From assembly GCA_049510745.1 (NCBI GenBank), contig JBEKYR010000058.1, positions 1-27,890 of the forward strand: a stretch of DNA of 27,890 nt. The letters run 5' to 3'. The translations under genes and the position numbers were made by a program. Every line of letters begins with the position of its first letter. Positions within the stretch are counted from its first letter, which is position 1. Shown piece after piece: positions 2,493-16,897 of the stretch. The notes beneath the pieces were generated by a model. It saw only the letters and a list, made by a program, of their open reading frames with translations. It was not told where the DNA came from and made no database searches. The DNA comes from Verrucomicrobiota bacterium (GTDB taxonomy: Bacteria; Verrucomicrobiota; Verrucomicrobiia; Limisphaerales; Palsa-1400).

Positions 2493-4667
2493 CTAAGCGG
2501 TTTCATTGGTTGAGAGATCGCCCCAATGCCGATAGTCCTTCTTGTCCAGTTCTGTGTGAAGATCTTTCGCGTTTAATGCGAAGAGATATCGGATAGGCAA
2601 CGGTATGCCCCTGAGTTCGGGCTTTTGGTGCCAGTACCATGGCGCGGGTGTAGGAAGCTTCTGGCGCTCCGCTTCTCGAAGGACGGTTCTGCCCGAGCAG
2701 CCCAGTTTGGGTCCGATTTTATTTGCGTCCTCTTTCCACAATTGTTTGAGGAAGTCATCCAATGGAGGCCAGATCACTTTGGATTTGCGTCCCACCGGGC
2801 CAGAGTATTCGGGCAGTCCTTCGGGAAACAACCTCGCAACTTCCTCCGGCAGGGTCACCGGCACGCCTGCTGCGCGTTTTTGCCAATACCCGACCGGAGG
2901 AACTTCGATCCCACGATCGGCAAACGCGAGGGTGAGAGTGCCTCGTGTGACGCCATATTGCTCCGCCAATTCCTCGAGTTTTTTCGTGTAAACGAGCAGG
3001 AGGAGGTCTTCCCGTTTCTCCGGCAGCGGAAGCGTGCGGCGCTTCGTCCAAACATTTTCGCGGGTTGGCCGCTTCGATTCGGGAATCGCGGCTTCCGGGC
3101 ACTTGACAAGAAACGCGCGGCGCATTCTCTCGAACTGGTCTTTGTCCATGAAAAACGTGTTCGGAATGTTGACCGGGCATTTAAGCCGCTTGAGTTCGGC
3201 GTCCGTGGCTCCGAGTGGAATGCCCCTCTTCTTCAAGTCTTCCACGTCTGGAATTCTGAGTTTGTCGGCAATTCCATAAAACTCGCGTGTCTCCTCGTCC
3301 GAAGCCTTTCCCTTGTAGTGCTTGAAAATCATTCCAGGCGAATTACCAGCCCAGAGCGCGGTTTCGTGTTCGTTCTTTGATCGGTTTAGGTGGTGTGTGA
3401 TTCCCACGTGACGCAGAACATCCGACTCCCACTCCTGAAGCTGCTGCGAAAACAAATAGTCCGGAATCAGGTCTTTCCGACCAAGAAAGCCGATCCTCGC
3501 GCGCAACGTGGTCCAGTCATGAGCGAAACCGCGGGGAATTATTGGGTATCCTGCCTCAACGTAAGTTTGGACAATCGGCACAAACTCGTCGGGTATTTTG
3601 ACGTCGCGCAATTGACGCGTCTTGCCGATAACCGAAATAAGCGACGGCTCGGACTTTCGGAATTTAAACGATTCAATTCCCAGAATTTTCCGCAAAGCCT
3701 GGATTCGGGCGAGTTCAGCAAGACGTAACGCTGCGACAATTGCAATGACACAGAACAAGAATAACCTGCCTCCCTTGAATGCCTGGGCTTCCTGAAGCAG
3801 ATTCACCACGACGCTATTCGGCAAAATTGTCGGGACCTTGTAGTCATCCTTTCGCTTTTGTAATTTAACGAGCTTCACCGGATTCGAAGGACAATGGCCG
3901 CGCTCTCTGTCCGACGCCCAGTCGAAGAAGGTGCTGAAATCGCTTTTATACCTTTTCCAAGTTGACTTTTTGGTCCCGGAGTGGATGAGTTTGTGCAATA
4001 GTTCAGATGAGACCTGATGCACCATGCATCCGGAGGGACAGGCCTTAACCAATCGCCCTAAACTGGTCTTCTTCGTATCCATTGTGCCAAACCGGAGATT
4101 GGCCTTTTCCTCGGAATCAATGAATTCTGTCACGGCGATAGCCAGCGGCTTTGGATTTGTGCATGGTTGAAAGTGCTTTATCACGTAATCAACCACCTCG
4201 CTGAGTGTCCACTTGCTCTTCGTCCAATCCGGTTCCGGCAGTTGTAACATCATCACGACGGCTTTCTCCGCGTCCCTTACCTGGTCCGCGTTGAGTTCCG
4301 TTTGGACCAAATGAAACCGCTTTGCAGCGTTTCCGTCCTCCCGTAAGAGTTCATCGCGGTAGCCGTCCGCCTGTTCGAGATTGTTAAAGTTGTTTTTGCG
4401 GACGCGTCGGGCATCCGATTCTTGTTTGGTGTCTTGGCCGCCGTTGCTACCGGATTGGATGTTCCCGGCGGGATCCTTGCCGACCGAGCCTTTCGGCCGG
4501 TAGCCGCTGACTTTTGGGACAAGTTCCCCCGACGGATTGCGGAAAGGCTTGATCGAATACCTCCCCATTGTGACGCGACAGGCAAACGCGCCGTCAGTGA
4601 TTAACTGTATGCCATCATTCTCGATGACTCGCAGCCTGGTCCGCTCATTTTCGTTCAAAGCCGGCAT
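2493..4667 (-). CDS. Tyrosine recombinase/integrase with long C-terminal extension
   Basis: SAM-like core-binding region ('FFDWAS...SNPVKLVK'). Catalytic motifs ALRLAEL (R), GKT (K), DVLRH, WAGNS and FKHY (Tyr at 3315-3317). Confidence 0.88.
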   Translation of the reverse strand: MPALNENERTRLRVIENDGIQLITDGAFACRVTMGRYSIKPFRNPSGELVPKVSGYRPKGSVGKDPAGNIQSGSNGGQDTKQESDARRVRKNNFNNLEQADGYRDELLREDGNAAKRFHLVQTELNADQVRDAEKAVVMMLQLPEPDWTKSKWTLSEVVDYVIKHFQPCTNPKPLAIAVTEFIDSEEKANLRFGTMDTKKTSLGRLVKACPSGCMVHQVSSELLHKLIHSGTKKSTWKRYKSDFSTFFDWASDRERGHCPSNPVKLVKLQKRKDDYKVPTILPNSVVVNLLQEAQAFKGGRLFLFCVIAIVAALRLAELARIQALRKILGIESFKFRKSEPSLISVIGKTRQLRDVKIPDEFVPIVQTYVEAGYPIIPRGFAHDWTTLRARIGFLGRKDLIPDYLFSQQLQEWESDVLRHVGITHHLNRSKNEHETALWAGNSPGMIFKHYKGKASDEETREFYGIADKLRIPDVEDLKKRGIPLGATDAELKRLKCPVNIPNTFFMDKDQFERMRRAFLVKCPEAAIPESKRPTRENVWTKRRTLPLPEKREDLLLLVYTKKLEELAEQYGVTRGTLTLAFADRGIEVPPVGYWQKRAAGVPVTLPEEVARLFPEGLPEYSGPVGRKSKVIWPPLDDFLKQLWKEDANKIGPKLGCSGRTVLREAERQKLPTPAPWYWHQKPELRGIPLPIRYLFALNAKDLHTELDKKDYRHWGDLSTNETA

Positions 4668-5044: not shown

Positions 5045-5335
5045 TGCGCTTCGACCCTGGGTTGATTCGAAATCGTCATGGAAGTCCCTCCTTCTTCTGT
5101 CCAGCGGAAGCAGCCACCAACTCGGCGATTGCAGGGAATATGGAGCCGATGCGTACCGCCGAGAACGGCTGTGCGAATACGGCTACGGTGATGTTGCCAG
5201 CGGTCTGAATCCATGCGACGCCGCCGCAATCCGGCGGAGTTGTCCCGGTCGTCGCGGCCGGCGTTGGAGACGGGGTGGACGGGACGTCAGGCATGGTCCC
5301 CCTTCCTTGGGCTGAGGTTTTGCCGGTTCGGAGGA

Positions 5336-5435
5336 AATCGCCCAAAACCGCTGGCAATCGGCGCCGTTGACCACGGCCCGATAGTGGCGATGCACCATTT
5401 CCGGCGGGTTGCCCAAACGCACCTCCGCCACTTTG
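5336..5435 (-). pseudogene. C-terminal remnant of a tyrosine integrase
   Basis: 'VAEVRLGNPPEMVHRHYRAVVNGADCQRFWAI' aligns with 'TALWAGNSPGMIFKHYKGKASDEETREFYGI' of the 2493-4667 integrase. Upstream domains are absent. Confidence 0.7.
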
Positions 5436-5641
5436 GGGTTCCGCCCCGTTCCACGGGCCGTTGGCCCAAAATCCCCGGTTTCGGCATGGAAGGGACAGGA
5501 AAGGAAACTTTTTGGTTCCGCAGGTCTTCCGCAGGACACGGTCGCGCCCCGCTTCGCCCCGTTTCAGGCTGTCAAGCGGCGCCGATCCGGGCGGCTCCGC
5601 AGTCCCTCTCCGATCAGCGTCGGCTTGGAGCAAGGGGTTTC

Positions 5642-6952
5642 TCATGGTGTCCTCTCCTTGGATTTTGAGTGCATCCCTGCGGCAGCCGGGTTGCGTGTCC
5701 TTGCGGTAAGCTGGATCTTGCGGGCGACGGCGAGCAAATGATCGGGGCGGACGTCGCCATAGACTTCGGCGATCAGAGTCGGCCCTGTCTTGTCGCCAAT
5801 CAGTTGGGCGATTTCGGCGTCGGTCAGGCCAGACTGCCGCGCCTGCGTCACAAAGTACGAACGCAGCCCCTGTGGCGTCACGTGGGTCAAGCCGCAGGCC
5901 GCGGCCGCCTGGCCCAGCCGGCGGCGGTATGACGAATCGTCGCGCGGCGCCGCCTTGTCGAAGGGCGAGGGAAAGAGCAGATCGCTTTTGGCTTTTGTTT
6001 TCATCCGGCGCAGCAGTTGGGCCAGTTCCGGCAGAATCAGGACAAACGGGAACACTCCTCTTTTCGATCGCTTGACGTGGATCAGTTCCTCGGCCCAGTC
6101 CACCTGCGACCAGCGGGCGTTGAGTCCTTCGTTCAGGCGGAGGCCGCTGTAGGCCAGGTACCGCGTGATGTCCGCATCCTGTCCAAAGCCCTTCCCTCCC
6201 ATCCAGTTGGCGATGCGCACCAGGCCGTCGGGGGTGGGCGCCACTTCGCGGCAATGGCGGACCGTCGAATCATCGGCGTACCGGCCTCGGTCCCGGATGG
6301 GATTGGACTTCAGGACGCCCTGCCGCATAGCGAACTCCAGAGCGTTGGAGAGGACGATCAGGTTCAGATCGACGGCCCGGTCGCCCCCTTGTGCCTTCTT
6401 TTGGATCGGCTTGCCGCGGCACATGAATTTGGCGACGTAGCCCCCGTTGCACCGCCAAACGTGGAACGCATCGCAATCGCCGAGGGTCAGCTGTTCGGCG
6501 ATCTTGCCGCCGAAGTAAACTCTCAGCGGTGGCAGGGTGTATGTCTCGTTCTCAACCGAACGGGGAGACTTGCGCTTGAGCTTCCGCTTCTTGACGGTGG
6601 GATGCCCGGCCGCCACATAGTTGTCTATGATCTGGTTGATCGTAACCGGAGGAGATTTTGAACTTGCCGCCTCCGGCGAAGAACCGCTCTGGCCGCCGTC
6701 AGCCGTTGGAGGTTTCCCGGAAGCGGGCTCGGTCTCCTCTTTGGCGATGTAGCCTTGCCGCTGGAGCCATTGCTTTTCCTCCCACTTCTTCTTCCACTTC
6801 CGGGCCAGCTCCGGGTCGTCCGTCTTGGTGCTCTTCCAAGTGCATTTGCCTGCCAGCCGGACACGGGCGTAAATGCGGTTCCCGTTCCTCTTTCTGGCCA
6901 GGCCCGGCTCGATCAGGATGAACGCGGCGTCGTTGGTATCTTGATTTGCCAT
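5642..6952 (-). CDS. Tyrosine recombinase/integrase (second type); ORF extends in frame to 7378
   Basis: N-terminal arm-binding-like 'RIYARVRLAGKCTWKSTKTDD'. Catalytic YSGLRLNE, RSK, QGLRS, IGDKTG, EVY. Start at 6952 (MANQD) is inferred. Confidence 0.88.
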   Translation of the reverse strand: MANQDTNDAAFILIEPGLARKRNGNRIYARVRLAGKCTWKSTKTDDPELARKWKKKWEEKQWLQRQGYIAKEETEPASGKPPTADGGQSGSSPEAASSKSPPVTINQIIDNYVAAGHPTVKKRKLKRKSPRSVENETYTLPPLRVYFGGKIAEQLTLGDCDAFHVWRCNGGYVAKFMCRGKPIQKKAQGGDRAVDLNLIVLSNALEFAMRQGVLKSNPIRDRGRYADDSTVRHCREVAPTPDGLVRIANWMGGKGFGQDADITRYLAYSGLRLNEGLNARWSQVDWAEELIHVKRSKRGVFPFVLILPELAQLLRRMKTKAKSDLLFPSPFDKAAPRDDSSYRRRLGQAAAACGLTHVTPQGLRSYFVTQARQSGLTDAEIAQLIGDKTGPTLIAEVYGDVRPDHLLAVARKIQLTARTRNPAAAGMHSKSKERTP

Positions 6953-7402
6953 CACGCCGTTCTTGTCAGGCTCTGTTTTCTGGAGCGCGGCAGAATCCTC
7001 CCGGCTCTCAAGCGGCGGCGGCACAGGATATGGAGTTGGGGGGAGGGAATTCATGCCTGGTTCGGTCCTTCGTGGATAAGACGTTGCCGGCGATCCCATC
7101 TCTTCTTCCAACTTCGCGCCAGTTCGATATGGCCAGCCCCCGCCCTCCTCCAGACGGGGGAGGCCGTTCCCGCGCCCACGCGCATAAAGGCGGCCGTCCT
7201 TTCTCGAAAGACCTGGCTCGGCAAACTCAAACGCAGCGGGTTTTGTCTTTTGCCTGTCTTGCACGACGCTGAATGTGTTTGGTCCGGTTTTGCCGTTCCC
7301 GTCCCTTTCAAACTCCCTGCACTCCCGGATGTCACCCATCTGCGACAGCCGGATCGAGTTAAGGGAGAGTGCGTTCATCGGCGCCGAGAGTTCGGCTTGG
7401 AT

Positions 7403-7603
7403 TTATTCGCTGTGATCACCGACGTACCGGTCCAGGTCCGACTTACGAATCCGCACCAATCCCCCAATACGCACCCTGCGCAGGCCATTCTTGCACATGC
7501 GCCAGAGGGTGGTCCGGCTGATGCTGAGCATTTGGCAAACCGCCGTCTGCTTGTAGAAGACCTCTCCGCCGCTGCCCGAATCCAATTGTGAATTGTTCGA
7601 CAT
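7403..7603 (-). CDS. Excisionase-family HTH protein (HTH_17/AlpA-like)
   Basis: 'YKQTAVCQMLSISRTTLWRMCKNGLRRVRIGGLVRIRKSDLDRY'. Upstream of the integrase. Confidence 0.85.
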   Translation of the reverse strand: MSNNSQLDSGSGGEVFYKQTAVCQMLSISRTTLWRMCKNGLRRVRIGGLVRIRKSDLDRYVGDHSE

Positions 7604-7686: not shown

Positions 7687-7768
7687 CATCTCCTCCAGGA
7701 GGATCAAAGAATTAGGAATTAGGCAGATTCTTGCTGCTGAGGCGCATTTTCCGATCCTCCCATGCTAT

Positions 7769-7837
7769 GTGCGCATTGGCGACGGCTACAAAGGCTGGCC
7801 TGAGGCGGCGCCATTTGACGCCATGATTGCCACTTGC
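7769..7837 (+). pseudogene. pcm: Internal fragment of protein-L-isoaspartate O-methyltransferase
   Basis: Translates [23 protein letters not shown], the Pcm signature region. No recognisable Pcm sequence on either side. Confidence 0.8.
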
Positions 7838-7856
7838 CAACTGCGAGGGGCTGGAG

Positions 7857-9196: not shown

Positions 9197-9294
9197 GTCG
9201 GCCTTCCAAGCCATCCCTCTACATCGGCGGATGCGGTTCAGTCGTGTCTATTCGCCGATGCGCACAAGGCAGGCAATAGGCCTGCGACGCGCCC

Positions 9295-9693
9295 TCAGAG
9301 TTTGTATCCAATCTGGCGAAGGAATTGCTTTCGCCATTCGATGTCCGCCTCCCCTTCAACCCCCTTGGGCGGCAGACCATCCACGACGCCCACGATGGCG
9401 CGCCCCTGATCGGTTTCCGCCACCAGCACCTGAACTGGATTGGCCGTAGCGCAGAAAATCCGGCAGACCTCGGGCACCATTTTGACGGCATTGAGCACAT
9501 TGACCGGATAAAAACCCTCCGCAAGAAAAAGGATAAAGCTGTGCCCGGCCCCGATGGCCAAGGCGTTCTTCTTGGCCAGTTCGATCATAGCCGGATCGGT
9601 GCCGGTCCAGCGCACCAGGCATTTGCCGGATGATTCGCAAAATGCCAGCCCAAACTTGATGCCGGGCACGGCGGTGACCAAGGCCTCATGGAT
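9295..9693 (-). pseudogene. Adenosine-specific kinase family (DUF355) protein, 5'-truncated
   Basis: Similarity starts at IHEALVTAVPGIKFGLAFCE and continues through HSF...CATANP. The usual N-terminal segment (GQxHFIKTVED) is absent, and there is an in-frame TGA at 9754-9756. Confidence 0.8.
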
Positions 9694-9738
9694 GGCCAAC
9701 CCGGATTCACCCGGGACAACCCCAAGCGACGCAACGGC

Positions 9739-9824
9739 TTTGGCGCCGCTGATTCACGCGTGGCGCCGCGAGCGTTCAAATCAATCGACCGTCAACGGGC
9801 GCAGACCCGCTGCCGGACGCGTTT
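9739..9824. repeat. 86-bp direct repeat, copy 1
   Basis: 73/86 identical, ungapped, to 16588-16673. Confidence 0.92.
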
Positions 9825-10149
9825 ATCCTGGGGCAGATAGCTCGTGCCAAGTAGCAGGGTGCAATCAGGGTACAAGTAATGACCGGCTCGTGGCGCTCTA
9901 GCTCCTCACGATATGGAGGCCGGCTCGGTCCTGGGCCAGAGATCTTGCGTGCGGCGACGCCTGCATGAGCTTCGTCTTTGCCTCATCAAAGTTCATCGAA
10001 CCGACGATACCATCGCCGTTAATACCCAGGGGACCGGTCGTGGATGAATCAAGCATCTTGCAGGGAGGAATTCTGCTGCTCCCCAGACCGGACGAACCGC
10101 GTGCTGGAAATCATTGTCAGGGAGATGGGCCTAGGCTATTGTGAAACAA

Positions 10150-11139
10150 ATGAAGGCGGCGTTGATCAAGCGTTTATTCTCGGCCGTTCATCAAGGGCTG
10201 ACCCCTGATGTTGAGGTGATTTGTGCCCGCATCATCGAGAGTGAGCGAGCGCATGGTCACGAGAAACTTGCTGCCGACCTCGAAAAAATCGTTAAAGAGT
10301 CTCGGCCAACGAAAGCCTCAGGCGGAGTGCCACCCCAGGATGTCCGTGGGCTACAGCCCCTCCCTTCAAGCAAACGCGAGGCCACGCCATTGGTGGTGGT
10401 CATTCCTCACGATAGGTTGCGCCACCAAATGGTGCTGCCAGAAATGGTTGAAAGTCGATTTCTTCGAATCGAAAAGGAGTACGCCGCCCGCAGCCGGCTG
10501 GCAATGTTCGGTCTGCGTCCGCGGTCTCGCATTATGCTGCATGGTCCACCTGGCTGTGGAAAGAGCCTGGGAGCTGAACGGTTGGCGTGGGCCACCGGAT
10601 TGCCCTTGCATAAAGTCCGTTTCGACACATTGCTCTCGTCCTATTTCGGGGAAACAGCGGTGAATCTCCGGCGGGTGTTCGATTCGGCAGAACAAACGCC
10701 TTGCGCCCTTTTTCTCGACGAGTGCGATACTATTGCACGAGCACGAGGGGACCGCAACGATGTTGGCGAGGCACAGCGAATCGTGAACATGCTGCTCCAA
10801 TTGTTGGAGGAGTACCATGGCAATGGGTTCGTCATTGCCGCGACGAATTTGCAGGAGTCGTTGGACCGGGCGATCCTTCGGCGCTTCGATGAAGTGATTG
10901 AGATTCCCAAACCGGCATTGCCTGAAATCGTGAGGCTGCTGAAGCAAACGCTCTCGTCGATCAAGACCGACCCCGCAATTCTGTGGGAGCAGGTGGCGGT
11001 GCAAATGGAGGGACTCAGGTGCTCAGACGTGACAAGGGCTGCCGAAAATGCCGCAAAACGAACGGTGATGAGCAATCGAGATACTGTCATTGCAAAAGAC
11101 TTTGAAGGCGCGATCTCGGAGTTGAAACGGCACTGCTAA
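10150..11139 (+). CDS. ietA: AAA+ ATPase, IetA-like
   Basis: Walker A GPPGCGKS, Walker B LFLDE, AATN sensor, RRFD arginine finger. 14 bp upstream of the S8 protease gene. Alternative GTG start at 10141. Confidence 0.85.
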   Translation: MKAALIKRLFSAVHQGLTPDVEVICARIIESERAHGHEKLAADLEKIVKESRPTKASGGVPPQDVRGLQPLPSSKREATPLVVVIPHDRLRHQMVLPEMVESRFLRIEKEYAARSRLAMFGLRPRSRIMLHGPPGCGKSLGAERLAWATGLPLHKVRFDTLLSSYFGETAVNLRRVFDSAEQTPCALFLDECDTIARARGDRNDVGEAQRIVNMLLQLLEEYHGNGFVIAATNLQESLDRAILRRFDEVIEIPKPALPEIVRLLKQTLSSIKTDPAILWEQVAVQMEGLRCSDVTRAAENAAKRTVMSNRDTVIAKDFEGAISELKRHC

Positions 11140-11153
11140 GGGATTCCTCTGCG

Positions 11154-13751
11154 ATGGCATTCCCACACCTCAGACTGCTGGCGATCGAACGAGGCCGAGC
11201 CAAACTTCAAGGAGGCGGCAAAGAAGCCCCAGAAGTGAAGGCCAACAAAGCAAGCCGCCACCAACATGCGGGATTGATCCGCCAAAAGTTGGGGGACATC
11301 ACTGCATATTGGCAGCGAGTCCAGCTTGATCGGGAGCAGAGGGGCTTGCCCCCGATTCCCGGTGGTATTCCATTCCTATTGCGAATACCCGAGCGGGCGG
11401 AAGAATTGCTTTATCGTCTCGAAAAGGACTTTGGGGTGACGATTGTGGCCCAGTTTGAAGAGGGCTTTCTGATGGTGGCCTCAGAAGACATATCCCTGGC
11501 AGCCTTCCAACAGCTCACCACGGAATTTGAAAATGAGGTTCACGGGGCGACGGCAATGGCGTCAATCCTGGACGTTTATGACGATGGCAGATCCGATGAC
11601 CGGCTGAAGAAAATTCTCTCTCCTGAGCTTTTGACCATCTGGCCCTTGGTTGACACAAACACGTATATCCTGGATGTCAGCATTCAGACGGCGGGGCTCG
11701 GCACCGAGGTTAGCAACCCGCCAAAGCAGCGGAAAAAAGAGAGCCAAGAGGAGTTTGAGCACCGAAGGCAGGAATGGGAAGCGGAGTGGCGGGCGACAGA
11801 GGTCAAATGGGATGAGAATCAAATCGAGACGGAAGACGATTTGGGCAGGTTTCTACGTCCGTATGGTGGCCAGATCATCGATCAGGTAGGGGGGCAACCG
11901 ACAATTGAGGGCGGCGTGGTAAAGCTGCCAGATAGTTTCTCCGTGCGGATTCGGATGAGTGGTCAGGGCTTTACTGACCTCCTCAAGAACTATGCCCGGG
12001 TTTTCGAGGGCAATTTGCCAGAGGACATCGAACAGCCTGATCCCATACCCCAGATGGCTCAACCTGGCGATTATCCCCCCGTGGGCGTCCCACAGGAGAA
12101 CGCACCGGCCGTTTGCGTCATCGACAGCGGCATCCAGGAAGGCCATAGGTTATTGCAGCCCGCGATTGACGCTGGCAACTCCCGGTCTTTCTTAGCTGGC
12201 CAAGATGTGGCAGATCGAGTTGCACCAGATGGGCATGGTACACCCGTAGCCGGAGCAGTGCTCTACCGGGATTTTTTCCCAGGGAACCAGAGTGGCGAAG
12301 CAGTTTGCTGGATACAAAATGCCCGCTTGCTGAACGACCAAAAAACCCTGCCCACAGACGTTTATCCACCGCTGGCGCTACGGGAGATCATTACCCACTA
12401 CCGGAATGGCAACCGGCGGACGCGCATTTTCAACCATTCCATTGCAGCCAATGGGCCGTGTCGGCCGGTGCGCATGAGTACATGGGGCGCGGAAATTGAC
12501 TTATTGAGTCACGAACTTGATGTTCTTGTCATTCAGGTTGCAGGAAACATTCCTGGGCGTACGAACTCAGTCCAGCGCCCGGGGATCATCGAAAACATTG
12601 CCGCTGGGCGTCCGTATCCGGATTATCTGAGGGAATCGTCTTCCAGAATCTCAAACCCTGGACAAAGCTTGCAGGCGATAACGGTTGGATCCGTTGGAAT
12701 GGCAACAATCGACGATGGCAACCGGGCGACGATTGGCGGCGAGACTCGCCCATCGGCGTTCTCCCGGTCGGGCTGGGGCCTCTGGGAGACGTTTAAGCCG
12801 GATGTGGTTGAAATCGGCGGAGATTATCTAATTGATGCGAGCCGGACCAACCTTTCGACAACGGAAGCGGCCAGCCCGGAATTGGTTCGCTGCACGTTCG
12901 CGACCCCTGGCGCTGCCACGACTCGAGCTTTGGTTGGCACTTCGTTTGCCGCCCCACGGGTGGCGGGAATCGCGGCCGCCCTTCAAAGGGTTTTGCCCGA
13001 TCAACCAACATTGCTGTACCGTGCGCTGATAATCCAGTCAGCACGGTGGCCAGATTGGATGGAGAGGCTCTCTCCCGACGAGCAGATCAAGTGGATGAAG
13101 TCCCTGGGATTCGGCATCCCTGATCCGGCTCGTGCAACCTCAAACACGGACCGACGGGTAACGCTCGTCACGGAGGGGTGCCAGGCCGTTCATGCTCTGG
13201 AAGCTGCCATTTACATTGTGGATATCCCTGCTGAGATGAGATCGCCCGGCAGCGAGTTTGACGTGAGAATCGAAGTCACGTTGAGCTATTCCAGCAAGCC
13301 TCGGCGCACGCGCAGTTCGCGGAAAGGCTACCAGGAAATTTGGCTTGACTGGATTGCCTCGAAGAAGGGTGAGAGCCTCGACGCTTTCAGGGCTCGGGCG
13401 ATCAAAGGATTTGGGGAGACGGAGGATTCGGACTCAGTGGATTGGATGCTGCACGAGCGAAAAGACTGGGGAATCCTGCGGGGAATTCACCGGCAGGCCA
13501 GCACCGTACAAAAGGACTGGGTGGTGCTAAAGGCGCATGAGCTTCCTGAAACCTTCGCCGTCGCGGTGCGCGGGCACAATGGATGGAGCAAGGACCCTAA
13601 TTCGACTGCCAAGTTTGCGCTGGCCGTTACGATTGAGGCCGAGGCGTGCCCAGTGCCGATTTACGCGATGATTCAGCAGGAACAAGCGGTGCAGCTGGAG
13701 CAGATACAGACAAAGAACCAGGTGAGGGTTTCTTCGCAGGCGACCTCCTGA
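11154..13751 (+). CDS. ietS: S8 (subtilisin) family serine protease, IetS-like
   Basis: Catalytic triad in VIDSG, GHGTPVAG, GTSFAAP, plus AGN oxyanion and KPDVV motifs. No signal peptide. Paired with the AAA ATPase. Confidence 0.88.
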   Translation: MAFPHLRLLAIERGRAKLQGGGKEAPEVKANKASRHQHAGLIRQKLGDITAYWQRVQLDREQRGLPPIPGGIPFLLRIPERAEELLYRLEKDFGVTIVAQFEEGFLMVASEDISLAAFQQLTTEFENEVHGATAMASILDVYDDGRSDDRLKKILSPELLTIWPLVDTNTYILDVSIQTAGLGTEVSNPPKQRKKESQEEFEHRRQEWEAEWRATEVKWDENQIETEDDLGRFLRPYGGQIIDQVGGQPTIEGGVVKLPDSFSVRIRMSGQGFTDLLKNYARVFEGNLPEDIEQPDPIPQMAQPGDYPPVGVPQENAPAVCVIDSGIQEGHRLLQPAIDAGNSRSFLAGQDVADRVAPDGHGTPVAGAVLYRDFFPGNQSGEAVCWIQNARLLNDQKTLPTDVYPPLALREIITHYRNGNRRTRIFNHSIAANGPCRPVRMSTWGAEIDLLSHELDVLVIQVAGNIPGRTNSVQRPGIIENIAAGRPYPDYLRESSSRISNPGQSLQAITVGSVGMATIDDGNRATIGGETRPSAFSRSGWGLWETFKPDVVEIGGDYLIDASRTNLSTTEAASPELVRCTFATPGAATTRALVGTSFAAPRVAGIAAALQRVLPDQPTLLYRALIIQSARWPDWMERLSPDEQIKWMKSLGFGIPDPARATSNTDRRVTLVTEGCQAVHALEAAIYIVDIPAEMRSPGSEFDVRIEVTLSYSSKPRRTRSSRKGYQEIWLDWIASKKGESLDAFRARAIKGFGETEDSDSVDWMLHERKDWGILRGIHRQASTVQKDWVVLKAHELPETFAVAVRGHNGWSKDPNSTAKFALAVTIEAEACPVPIYAMIQQEQAVQLEQIQTKNQVRVSSQATS

Positions 13752-13813
13752 TGGCGAGAACAGTACCGAAGCTCCTCAACGGGGGCGGCGTTGTAGGGTC
13801 GGCGCAACCGGCT

Positions 13814-16563
13814 TCATAGGACGTCAAACTGGAGAGGCCGGTTAGCGATGCCTACACGGCTGTGGAGTTGGTTTTCGACGTCTACCTGGAGCATGGCACC
13901 GACGGAGGCAACACGACCCGTGCGGAGTTGACCGTCCTGACGCCATTGGATACGGGAGCCGACCTTTGGAACGTTGGGCTTGAAGGTGTTTGGCGGGGCA
14001 GCAACGGTTTTCCACCCACAATCGAAGCGATGCTGGGTGATCTTTTGAGCCGGATTTTGGATGGTGTGGATTTTGACCTTGTCCGGCTCCCGAGCGTACT
14101 CGACCACGTAGAGCCAAAAGTCATCGCCATGCTGCCGGGCAAAGTCCATTTGGGCCGGGTAGAGCGGGACACCGTCCACCTCCCAAGCGCCACCAATTCC
14201 CTTGACTTCAATGTAGCGAGGCCGCCCTTGCTGCAGGGCTTTTACGGGGCAAAATACGTCGAACCCAGGTTTGTTGTGGATGTGGTTGGAGGCATCAGGA
14301 TTGCGCCCTTGGGATCGCTCGTACTGGAGGACCCAGTGGACGGCCCAGTCGCCGATTTCTTTGTTGGGGCGCAATTCATCGTCGGCGTTATCACCGTCAC
14401 GTTCGGCTCGCTGACGCTGGGCCTCTGTGACTTCATAGCTCAGAAGGCGGCCTTTTGGTTTCTGCTCGGCGCGGGAGGCACCGGCGGAGCGGCGGTCGGT
14501 TTTGCGCTGACCGGGTGTTGAGGAACTACCGCCGGAGCCCCGCCCGCCGCCTTGGCGGCCCGAGCCTCTGGTTTGGCCGGATTGGGAACCGGCCTGACTG
14601 CCGCTTCCTCCGGTGCCGCCTGGTTGCTGCTGGCCACCCGGTTGCTGGCCGCTCGGTTGCTGGCCGCTCGGTTGCTGGCCGCTCGGTTGCTGGCCGCTCC
14701 GCTGTTGGCCCACACCGTCACCTGGCTGTTTTTTGGAATCGCCGCTTCCCTCGGCAGGTTTCTCTTGGCCGTTCTCGTCGAAGATGGTTGAGCGACCTTC
14801 CTCGGGTTTCTCCTCTTCATCGCTGGTGGCCTGATTATCCTCCACCCGACGGACTCGGAGCTTGTCGAGGATGGATTCGATACGGTCCGGGGCGCACTGG
14901 AGGATTTTGGTGAGAGGGCTGAGGTCCTGGAGGTCCTCTGCTCCGATCCAGTGCTGAAGTGCCGAGGCTACCTGCTCATAAAGCACGTCCGCCCCGGCTT
15001 CAGAAAGGGTAAGGGCGTAATCGGTGGAATCTGGTGGAGTGTGGAAGAAGAGTTCCTCGGATGTCGCGAGAAGAACTTTCTTGCCGTCGTCAAGCACATG
15101 ATGGGAGCACTGGAGGGTTTTTGCAGCGTTGACGCGGATCTCGGAGACCCAGTCAAGGTCGAGGTCGCTGGTGGCAATGGAACTGCGCGAAAGGATTCGT
15201 CGGAGGCCAGCGGCGAACTCCTGGGTTTTGAAGAGATTTTCGATGGTTGCGCAACGGTCGAGAAACTCTAGGTTCTGGGACTCAGGCCAGAGACCCTCCG
15301 GCTCGGTGATGATATAATCTGAGAGACGCCTGAGGTTGAGCCTCGCGAGGAGTTTGGTTGGGATTTGGGGATGATGAAGGTGGACAGGACTTTCTTCCAG
15401 TTTTTCGTCGAGCCACGTGGCGTCGTGAAAGAAAAGTTCGCTGGGAAGAACAGGGCAGCCGTCGCGGTCGAGGAGACGCATATCCGGCAGCGGGTCCTGG
15501 TCGGGGAGCAGTTCCTCGATGCGCACCAGTGTGCGGATGAACTGAGCCTCTTGTTTCCCGTCCAACTGGCTTGGAGTGGACTCGTGGATTTCGCGGGTCA
15601 AGCGGCAGAGGTCGCTGAGGTCGGGTTTATCCTTGCGGCCGAGAGCGGATAGGCCAGCCTCGATTTCTGCCGGGCCGAAGTAGGCCTGAGACCACCAGGG
15701 GGCGGCGAACGGAACTGATTCACGGAACGTGTCTTTGGGTTTTCGGAAGCGGCCTTCATTGCCGACGTAAATGCAGTCGTGGCCCGCAAAGGCGGCATGG
15801 AGGGGAGCTGACTCTGTGGGTTCAAGCTGGCCGAAGTAAGAATAGATGCGCTGAAGGGGGGTCTTGATGACCTTTGGGTCGGGGCAGCCACTGCCGTCCA
15901 GGGTGGTGAGCAGGTTGCAGAAGTGGATGGTGACGATAGCGACGGTGGGCAAAACGACTTCGGGCACGATTTCGCGAATGGCTAGCGGGATGCCTTCCCT
16001 CTGGTCGGCACTTAGTGGCAGGAGGTGTTTGACGCTGGCAACCAGGTGGCCAACCGATGGCGGATAAAGCTCGGTCAGGCGAAAGAGCTGCATTGGTGGA
16101 TCGGCGGCGACGAGGAGGTGTTTGAGATTCTTGTCGCCGCGCAGTGGGGGGCACCAGGTGCGGGTACGCAGGAACTCTCTGAAGGAGATGTTCGTCTTGT
16201 CCTGGAGATCGACCCGCCCGTCTCTGAGGGATGACCAGTTCTGGACGATGTGCTGGAGTACGGACACGAGCTGTTCCTCCGCGGCAGCCAAGGTTTCGGA
16301 CACAGGGGACGGACCGCTTTCTTCCTTGGTTACGAATATCTGCTTTAGTCTTTCGATGTGGCAGGCCAGATCCTGCGGGCGCGGTGTTTTGCAGATGTCC
16401 AGACGGTCGAAAAATGGGAACCAGCGGTCCCATTCTTTGCCGTAGCAGTCGTCATCCGGGACAACAGCGAGGTCACCGAGAACGTCGCGGATGGTTTTAT
16501 TATTGGGAATGTAGAGGTGGCGGCACTGCGACAGGACATTGTTGCTGCCGAGAACCAGTGCGG
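13814..16563 (-). pseudogene. Sacsin-like protein with DUF3883/NOV_C (PD-(D/E)xK-type) C-terminal domain, probably 5'-truncated
   Basis: 'PGFDV...RYIEVKG...Q...A...GDDFWLYVVE' and sacsin-like 'PSELFFHDATWL...HLHHPQIP'. No HATPase N-terminus. The ORF-track start (TTG 16633) lies inside the 86-bp repeat. Confidence 0.7.
14624..14710 (-). repeat. 15-bp tandem repeat encoding (QQPSG)n linker
   Basis: ggttgctggccgctc units, about 5-6 copies including degenerate ones. Confidence 0.9.
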
Positions 16564-16587
16564 AGGAGCGTAAGGAGCAGGGGCAAG

Positions 16588-16673
16588 TTTGGCACCGCCG
16601 ATTCACGCGCGGTGCCGCGAGTGTTCGAACCAAGTGACCGTCAAGGGGCGCGGGCCCGCCGCCGGACGCGTTT
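16588..16673. repeat. 86-bp direct repeat, copy 2
   Basis: 73/86 identical to 9739-9824. Contains perfect GGCACCGC/GCGGTGCC stem. Confidence 0.92.
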
Positions 16674-16753
16674 GGTCGAACGGAAACAATTGGGGACCTC
16701 GAGGCAAACGGCAGGTCAAAACATCCCGAAACGGCCGGAAACCGGGAGAAAAG

Positions 16754-16776
16754 TGTGACTACTCCTGTGACTACTC
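16754..16776. repeat. Tandem TGTGACTACTC x2, putative integrase arm-type sites
   Basis: Perfect 11-mers at 16754-16764 and 16766-16776, 45 bp from the tRNA 3' end. Confidence 0.6.
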
Positions 16777-16804
16777 GAGGGGCGACCTTTCTTGACAGTT
16801 AACG

Positions 16805-16817
16805 TAAGTCGTTGATA
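16805..16817 (-). promoter_or_regulatory. IHF consensus site adjacent to tRNA att
   Basis: TATCAACGACTTA matches WATCAANNNNTTR, starting 3 nt after the CCA. Confidence 0.6.
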
Positions 16818-16820
16818 ATG

Positions 16821-16897
16821 TGGCGCATCCGGCAGGACTTGAACCTGCAACCTTCTGATCCGAAGTCAGAAGCTCTATCCAATTGAGCTACGGATGC
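16821..16897 (-). tRNA. tRNA-Arg(TCG)
   Basis: GCATCCG acceptor stem, D arm, TCTGA-CTTCGGA-TCAGA anticodon arm, GGTTCAAGTCC T arm, encoded CCA. 77 nt. Confidence 0.96.

What the first reader, a model, noticed from the sequence alone, without database searches (positions are those of the whole stretch)
9739..16673. 86-bp structured direct repeats flank the defence cargo, and each precedes a decapitated gene
Seen: copies at 9739-9824 and 16588-16673 are 73/86 identical with no gaps (11 of 13 changes are transitions). The hairpin GGCGCCGC-N10-GTGGCGCC versus GGCACCGC-N10-GCGGTGCC shows a compensatory G-C to A-T change, and a minus-strand TTGACG is conserved. Within about 25-45 bp left of each copy a minus-strand gene begins mid-protein (adenosine kinase; sacsin-like). 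No transposase lies between the copies. Inference: a recombination or cassette-boundary site, element end, or structured RNA/promoter that captures or deletes adjacent DNA. This could be an undescribed cassette-acquisition system served in trans by the nearby integrases.
Basis: partly seen in the sequence, partly recalled or inferred. Interest (0 to 1): 0.8.

Follow-up and report, generated by a model that had tools for sequence, protein, structure and literature searches.

The report
Leftover ends of stacked tRNA islands
The two look-alike stretches around this defence gene block are worn-down ends of two related mobile islands that insert at an arginine tRNA gene, and the cut-off genes beside them look like ordinary deletion scars rather than a new gene-capture system.

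Summary
The repeat is real (73/86), and both neighbouring genes are cut at the 5' end. It is not a cassette boundary on present evidence.

The arm runs: tRNA core, IHF consensus, two 12-bp repeats, repeat R, then an excisionase-like HTH gene. That gene stands left of R in 5 of 5 intact relatives with enough flank. A third copy sits in the same arm at tRNA-Arg(ACG). Of 8 independent copies, 7 are arm-attached; copy 1 is an armless fragment.

Copies 1 and 2 are not sisters (AU p=0.018). The four junctions at R all fall at different positions. No repeat-to-repeat joint appeared in 4 runs (contigs only).

Best reading: tandem integration followed by deletions, which also removed the excisionase-like gene at all three copies. 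Unexplained: copy 1 is more conserved than nearby synonymous sites. An oriT test found nothing. The scan had not noted this repeat before.

The parts
16821..16897 (-). tRNA-Arg(TCG), the integration target. Its 3' 46 bp (16821-16866) is the core repeated at tandem junctions in relatives.
   Evidence: matches that stop at about 16866 in L037, L038, G003 and contig C80
16805..16817 (-). Perfect match to the IHF consensus (consensus recalled), 3 bp from the tRNA 3' end; the only one in the window
   Evidence: 1 in the window, 142 in 5.6 Mb; present in all 7 proximal arms scanned
16792..16819 (+). sigma-70-like promoter (11/12) pointing across the core; not conserved in L038, G003 or L036
   Evidence: on L043, whose arm is 232/233 identical to the window's; alignment
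16754..16776 (+). Two tandem repeats with 12-bp period, candidate integrase arm-type sites. The same pair stands on the far side of the core in C80 and L037.
   Evidence: binding is inferred
16674..16753 (.). Conserved arm sequence between R and the arm repeats; missing from copy 1
16588..16673 (.). R copy 2 (c2): inner part of the terminal arm, cut on its left; identical to L043 at 86/86
13814..16587 (-). 5'-truncated sacsin-like TmtA (Tiamat) gene; the frame stays open into R up to 16633; homology starts near 16576
11154..13751 (+). ietS, subtilase of the IetAS system
10141..11139 (+). ietA, AAA+ ATPase, with its own promoter-like site at 10114-10142
9694..9824 (.).
9295..9693 (-). 5'-truncated adenosine-specific-kinase-family gene; frameshifted and with a stop in L040 and L041
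5642..7378 (-). Tyrosine recombinase with its own HTH_17 gene upstream (7403-7603); not shown to act on R or on the tRNA arm
2493..4667 (-). Second, divergent tyrosine recombinase; not shown to act on R or on the tRNA arm
   Evidence: phrog_1, E 6e-11

Best explanation
R is the non-coding leader between the attachment arm and an excisionase-like gene at the tRNA-proximal end of a family of integrative islands that enter tRNA-Arg genes near the anticodon loop (position shown; function inferred). Such islands stack head-to-tail at this tRNA (shown in relatives). In an ancestor two sibling elements stood in tandem, so their leaders were automatically in direct orientation. A deletion removed the core and arm repeats of the outer element and joined its R to DNA upstream of ietA, leaving copy 1. 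Separate deletions removed the excisionase-like gene left of each R and ended inside genes read away from the tRNA, which leaves 5'-truncated genes (inferred). The island is now probably locked in place (inferred).
For: Third copy in the same arm at tRNA-Arg(ACG), 91% over 310 bp. 7 of 8 independent copies are arm-attached. HTH gene 92-93 or 365 nt left of R in 5 of 5 intact arms with flank: PF12728 E 1.4e-5, TIGR01764 E 2.9e-4, phrog_66 E 6e-6. No homologue in G000 at E<=1e-8. IHF consensus and arm repeats at fixed spacing from the core, 51 and 16 nt in 5 of 5. Tandem junctions of the type arm-core-next arm in L037, L038, L036, G003 and C80. c2 equals L043 at 86/86 but differs from c1 at 13; c1+c2 as one clade rejected, p-AU 0.018. 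Junctions at L043 positions about 9926 (c1 left), 9939-9944 (c3 left), 9984 (c2 left) and 10069 (c1 right). The c3 junction is a plain 0.98-kb internal deletion with a 6-nt overlap. Longest identical run between c1 and c2 is 13 bp.
Against: The tandem intermediate that gave c1 was not seen. No cognate integrase was found: the far-side arm with the same repeats is followed by a methyltransferase in C80 and L037. The HTH scores are below the Pfam and NCBIfam cut-offs. c1 differs at only 1-2 of 131 sites from L040 and L041 while ietAS four-fold sites differ at 47 of 565, which a dead relic does not predict. The c2 left junction lies about where G003-type arms carry about 270 extra bases. The tree has 88 columns and 6 of 7 inner branches are open.
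Confidence: 0.8

Rival explanations
1. R is a cis-acting site with a function of its own (an origin of transfer for a helper relaxase, or a plus-strand RNA hairpin or regulatory site), so it is kept after the arm and the excisionase-like gene are lost and travels with the IetAS block between islands.
For: c1 is conserved far below the synonymous rate. The block kinase stub-c1-ietA(S) also sits in a different island in L040 and L041. Both type-A proximal arms of G000 kept R though both lost the HTH gene. The hairpin keeps 98.7% of cells paired if G-U is allowed on the plus strand (4 of 500 shuffles). TrwC relaxases occur in 21 of 30 family genomes.
Against: No R-like match above noise around 12 TrwC genes or in 20 upstream regions (best E 0.22-0.25). 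No plasmid match better than E 0.7. No TrwC, Relaxase, Mob_Pre, MobA or VirB4-type hit in G000 (94% complete). Alleles recombine in blocks of several hundred bases (L039 against the window), so the conservation P values are overstated. The pairing was derived from these same related sequences, only 1 of 10 pairs has a two-sided change (192 of 500 shuffles), and C>T against G>A in the stem is 4:1 against 9:8 outside. Most copies were found by searching for R, so its retention is partly built in.
Confidence: 0.12
2. One reading: R is a recombination site that bounds a 6.85-kb cassette (ietA-ietS-tmtA), which entered as a circle and can leave again, served by a nearby integrase.
For: The geometry fits: direct repeats flank defence cargo, and the 86-bp overlap lies between the left end of c2 and the right end of c1. 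The c2 left end coincides roughly with an indel between arm types.
Against: c1 and c2 are not sisters, and c2 is not chimeric (86/86 to L043). The four junctions differ. No other locus has two copies. No joint between the copies in 4 runs of contigs. The cassette would carry a beheaded gene at its own edge. The integron-integrase model scores 17.8 against a cut-off of 265.
Confidence: 0.04
3. R is a small dispersed repeat (REP or MITE) that landed twice here by chance.
For: It is short, G+C-rich and holds an imperfect palindrome.
Against: Only 3 copies in 5.6 Mb by BLAST and by profile; 7 of 8 independent copies sit at one fixed place in one arm; no shared ends.
Confidence: 0.02

Closest known systems
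tRNA-targeted genomic islands and tandem arrays (Islander, PMC4383910; passages seen)
   Same: Target is a tRNA gene, the displaced 3' fragment marks junctions, the crossover lies near the anticodon loop, and tandem arrays form at one tRNA.
   Different: The cognate integrase was not found. In this window the far-end tRNA fragment is missing, so Islander's rule (integrase plus fragment) would not delimit it.
Tandem accretion and deletion of ICEs and related islands (SXT/R391 arrays, ICESt1 family; passages of PMC5812530; Pavlovic et al. 2004 seen only as its reference entry)
   Same: Stacked elements at one site that decay by deletion and leave hybrid remnants.
   Different: No conjugation genes were found in G000 with the five families tried, so these are not shown to be ICEs.
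Lambda/KplE1-type att arms with arm-type, IHF and RDF sites (PMC2951348; passages seen)
   Same: Core next to an IHF consensus and tandem arm repeats; a promoter region next to or overlapping the arm.
   Different: In KplE1 the gene beside attL is the integrase. Here it is an excisionase-like HTH gene, and R lies beyond the arm repeats. No binding site was tested.
Grounded (cryptic) prophages (PMC6379469; passages seen)
   Same: Loss of excision functions followed by deletions and gain of cargo.
   Different: No phage structural genes were looked for or seen; relatives carry tRNA arrays, HNH and RtcB genes instead.
iOriT islands, integrative elements with only an oriT (bioRxiv 10.64898/2026.01.13.699239; abstract, section 7 and passages seen)
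   Same: Islands without a relaxase, with defence genes near a short conserved non-coding site.
   Different: Those oriTs resemble sites next to helper relaxases; R resembles none of the TrwC neighbourhoods tested.

Membership tests
tRNA-targeted genomic island (tyrosine integrase) | Island end abuts a tRNA gene; displaced tRNA fragment marks junctions | tested here: met
   tRNA-Arg at 16821-16897; 46-bp 3' fragments at arm junctions in L037, L038, L036, G003, C80 and C21. No far-end fragment inside the window.
tRNA-targeted genomic island (tyrosine integrase) | Cognate integrase in the island | tested here: inconclusive
   Two tyrosine recombinases in the window but no arm-type tandem repeat or IHF consensus beside them; far-side type-A arms are followed by a methyltransferase.
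tRNA-targeted genomic island (tyrosine integrase) | Arm-type and IHF sites around the core | tested here: met
   By sequence only: the single IHF consensus of the window, 12-bp tandem repeats on both sides of the core, fixed spacing in 5 of 5 arms. Binding is not testable here.
tRNA-targeted genomic island (tyrosine integrase) | Recombination directionality factor | tested here: inconclusive
   85-aa HTH left of R in 5 of 5 intact arms, hits below curated cut-offs, phrog_66 E 6e-6; not found in G000 at E<=1e-8.
   Junctions at L043 positions about 9926, 9939-9944, 9984 and 10069.
   11 other loci of 2-20 kb with R hold one copy each; no joint between the copies in 4 runs, contigs only.
Integron attC array | Integron integrase | tested here: not met
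   TIGR02249 17.8 bits against a cut-off of 265 for 5642-7378; no hit for 2493-4667.
Integron attC array | attC end motifs and bottom-strand fold | not tested
   No attC model was run; folds of both strands do not beat shuffles.
REP / MITE | Many dispersed copies with common ends | tested here: not met
   3 copies in 5.6 Mb; ends differ.
Structured non-coding RNA | Rfam match | tested here: not met
   Only the tRNA at gathering score; at E<=10 over the intact arm one chance hit, E 3.8.
Structured non-coding RNA | Covariation beyond relatedness | tested here: inconclusive
   8 related sequences; 1 of 10 pairs with a two-sided change; covariation term +0.84 on the minus strand and -0.78 on the plus strand.
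iOriT (oriT-only island) | Site resembles an oriT beside a helper relaxase | tested here: inconclusive
   No match around 12 TrwC genes or in 20 upstream regions, a subset of the 76 TrwC matches; no plasmid match. Other relaxase classes in relatives were not examined.
iOriT (oriT-only island) | Mobilisation in trans | not testable with these tools
   Needs a mating assay.

The most novel reading that the evidence does not exclude
R is an undescribed cis-acting mobility site, such as an origin of transfer for a helper not present in this genome. It normally sits in the end of tRNA-array islands at tRNA-Arg, is kept under selection when the arm and excisionase-like gene decay, and lets a detached defence block (IetAS) move between islands.
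Probability: 0.1. Interest if true: 0.55.

Novelty: new member of a known kind. Interest (0 to 1): 0.17.

Why it matters
As it stands this is a clear case of islands stacking at a tRNA and decaying, in a lineage with few described mobile elements. It removes a false lead for a new cassette system. It also gives a by-product: a mapped attachment arm (core, IHF site, arm repeats, leader, excisionase-like gene) for islands that carry tRNA arrays with RtcB and HNH genes. My searches found no paper on this element family; one search returned only PMC8421152, on tRNA arrays in general. If the odd conservation of copy 1 reflects a mobility site, it would name a transfer route for relaxase-free defence islands in peat bacteria.

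Tried and rejected
Viral contigs: the R core pattern gave 9 hits, near-identical to each other and with no BLAST similarity to R. The arm-repeat pattern gave 0, and the HTH protein 0 confirmed of 6.

Genome contigs: 9 hits, 1 true (L029, the G003 contig) and 8 dropped as chance. Metagenome contigs: 14 hits, 10 true and 4 dropped as chance.

Order-level samples of 401 genomes: no arm outside G000. G314 gave a 32-nt match at E 1e-3 that I did not inspect, and G271 was a chance match inside a gene. One search scored only 2 candidates per genome, so it is a weak search. The profile search of 31 family genomes gave 4 strong matches (G000 three, G003 one) and 9 at noise level, 16-19 bits against 89-115.

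sigma-70 promoter in R: not called. ECF-type promoter (GAAC-N15-CGT, motif type recalled): not enriched upstream of genes, 25 sense against 27 antisense, while the sigma-70 control was enriched. A coding role for R was rejected because of indels in c1, L038 and G003. The small reading frame between c1 and ietA has no relative beyond its own cluster; the other 4 of 5 hits look like repeats.

Intact donors of the two cut genes: none in G000 or in 30 family genomes, so the donor side of those junctions could not be read. Six HTH-homologue loci from other family genomes had no tRNA, IHF consensus or arm pair in their flanks. No att-like repeats were recognised around the two window integrases. The larger records behind L037, L040, L041 and L043 are not held, so the whole element could not be read.
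Full report
OBSERVATION. The two copies exist at the stated coordinates, 73 of 86 identical without gaps, with 11 transitions and 2 transversions. Both left-hand genes lack their 5' ends. The kinase-family frame covers Pfam PF04008 from position 25 of 154. The sacsin-like frame covers PADLOC TmtA from 718 of 1563 and aligns to a 1214-aa relative from residue 312. Between the copies lie ietA and ietS. The structure claim is weak. Six folds gave z-scores of -0.42 to +0.96, Rfam found only a tRNA, and the 'compensatory' pair is G-T in 3 of 8 aligned sequences.

tRNA-Arg(TCG) lies at 16821-16897, 147 bp right of copy 2. The genome holds exactly three copies of R by BLAST and by profile. The third (c3, contig C30) continues rightwards in the same sequence as copy 2, 91% over 310 bp, into tRNA-Arg(ACG). 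So copy 2 is not a free-standing repeat but the inner part of a conserved island end.

ANATOMY OF THE INTACT END. Pattern scans gave 10 true copies among 14 metagenome hits and 1 among 9 genome hits. L034 and L035 are identical to this genome, L039 is a near-identical strain, and L047 repeats G003. That leaves 8 independent cases. Seven are arm-attached (c2, c3, L036, L037, L038, L043, G003) and one is armless (c1, shared by the window, L035, L039, L040 and L041). Reading away from the tRNA, the arm has four parts: the 46-bp tRNA 3' core; a perfect IHF consensus (motif recalled), the only one in the window and one of 142 in 5.6 Mb; two repeats of 12-bp period; then R. In all 5 intact arms with enough flank an 85-aa HTH gene starts 92-93 nt (or 365 nt in G003 and L036) left of R. 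It scores as excisionase-like, below the curated cut-offs. In L043 it is followed by ssb and, further in, by RtcB, HNH and a tRNA array. The same 12-bp repeat pair stands on the far side of the core in L037 and C80, and other arm types share the core. This is the layout of a tyrosine-integrase att site (PMC2951348, passages), with R outside the arm repeats, in the leader of the HTH gene. The position is shown. That R holds the promoter or operator of that gene is inferred, and no promoter was called.

WHY TWO COPIES IN ONE DIRECTION. Junctions of the form arm-core-next arm occur in L037, L038, L036, G003 and C80, so elements stack at this tRNA, as described for other islands (PMC4383910 and PMC5812530, passages). 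Stacked siblings put their leaders in direct repeat. Copy 2 is identical to L043 at 86 of 86 sites, and its arm at 232 of 233. Copy 1 differs from it at 13 sites and from c3 at 8. A tree holding c1 with c2 is rejected (p-AU 0.018; 10 rows, 88 columns, mostly unresolved; group named beforehand). The pair is therefore not a duplication made at cargo entry. The longest identical run between them is 13 bp, short for homologous recombination (general knowledge). In 4 runs of contigs no joint linked the copies; contigs drop rare forms, so this shows only that such a form is not common.

WHY BEHEADED GENES. In L043 coordinates the four junctions at R lie at about 9926, 9939-9944, 9984 and 10069, so there is no common crossover. 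Where both donor sides can be read (c3), the junction is a 0.98-kb internal deletion with a 6-nt overlap. It removes the HTH gene and ssb and cuts the 5' end off the next minus-strand gene. L037 shows another deletion just past the HTH gene. Genes here are read away from the tRNA, so a deletion that spares the arm and ends in coding DNA leaves a 5'-truncated gene. All three copies in G000 lack the HTH gene, and no homologue was found at E<=1e-8 (a 34% match elsewhere at E 2e-6). This fits a grounded element (PMC6379469, passages). The kinase stub is decaying: frameshift and stop in L040 and L041. The donor sides of the c1 and c2 junctions could not be read.

AGE ORDER. The block kinase stub-c1-ietA-ietS (9251-13544) also sits in another island, on the 5' side of tRNA-Arg(ACG) behind a different integrase, at 96.6% identity (L040; L041 covers 9251-10263). 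No second R is present in those 12- and 9-kb loci. Both c1 junctions therefore predate that split, while c2 is almost unchanged from an intact arm. The two 'boundaries' probably formed at different times (inference).

RESULTS AGAINST THIS READING. (1) c1 differs at 1 and 2 of 131 sites from L040 and L041, whereas ietAS four-fold sites differ at 47 of 565 (nominal P 1e-4 to 1e-3). Alleles are mosaic in blocks (L039), so the sites are not independent, but a dead relic does not predict this. (2) On the plus strand the hairpin stays paired in 98.7% of cells with G-U allowed (4 of 500 shuffles). The structure came from these related sequences, and the strand bias is slight. (3) The c2 left junction lies about where G003-type arms carry some 270 extra bases. 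(4) No cognate integrase was found, and the tandem intermediate is inferred. These points keep open a function of R's own. I tested the oriT version. TrwC genes are common in the family (21 of 30 genomes), but nothing like R lies around 12 of them or in 20 upstream regions out of 76 matches. Plasmids gave no match better than E 0.7, and G000 showed none of five conjugation families.

COMPARISON AND VERDICT. It works like, and by target and arm layout belongs to, the tRNA-targeted islands that stack and decay; the integrase test is inconclusive. It fails the tests for an integron, a REP and a fixed cassette boundary. Paper searches found no description of this element family. All papers were seen as listings, passages or one section, none whole, and no supplements were read. 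The supplements of the iOriT preprint, which hold its oriT families, are closed and may bear on the oriT question. The label 'Verrucomicrobia' comes from earlier scan notes and my own guess, not from a test; the best DNA holders are peat metagenomes. Interest 0.17; new member of a known kind.

Noticed in passing
L043:1-10300, L037:1400-10260; G000 contigs C73, C74, C75, C80: Islands with this arm carry tRNA arrays next to HNH and RtcB genes, and G000 holds matching array pieces with a Ro60/TROVE gene. This ties the array to an att arm at tRNA-Arg and suggests how it moves.
   Followed up: partly
L040:10600-12046, L041:1083-2529; G000 C49:24753-26355: Related integrases (37% identical) lie on the 5' side of tRNA-Arg(ACG) and tRNA-Phe, the rarer reversed orientation. 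In L041 a second integrase lies on the 3' side of the same tRNA.
   Followed up: partly
window 16754-16866; C21, C80, L020, L036, L038: At least three arm-repeat types share one tRNA-Arg core, and the proximal arms share the IHF site. Near-identical proximal arms sit at both the TCG and the ACG isoacceptor genes.
   Followed up: partly
L037:10262-10295, C80 far-side arm, L020:6090-6125: Two or three short repeats of about 11-bp period lie right beside the core on the far-side arms; candidate excisionase binding sites, seen by eye.
   Followed up: no
window 9697-9716 and 9751-9759; L043:9928-9947: A second small hairpin left of R has the same loop letters as the R hairpin, and both motifs persist in G003 although about 270 more bases separate them.
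   Followed up: partly
P0004: A 68%-identical TmtA-like relative is annotated as starting at almost the same residue where the window's gene is cut.
   Followed up: no
window 14613-14710: Five to six copies of a 15-bp unit encode a QQPSG repeat in the TmtA-like linker; the 79%-identical relative has fewer.
   Followed up: no
window 5183-5539, 7403-7603, 1977-2345, 7720-7850: An apparent integrase C-terminal remnant, two further small HTH-like genes beside the two recombinases (only 7403-7603 has a Pfam hit), and an apparent methyltransferase fragment show more nested, decayed elements in the left half.
   Followed up: partly
window 9792-10058 (-): An orphan reading frame runs across the right junction into c1 in a relative (87 aa, P0006) but is frameshifted here; no family.
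   Followed up: yes
L029 = G003:C201: The record title names a Saccharimonadales MAG, while genome search places G003 in the same family as this genome; the label and the placement may disagree.
   Followed up: no
family-wide: TrwC relaxases ring in 21 of 30 family genomes, with up to 21 matches in one, while G000 has none.
   Followed up: partly
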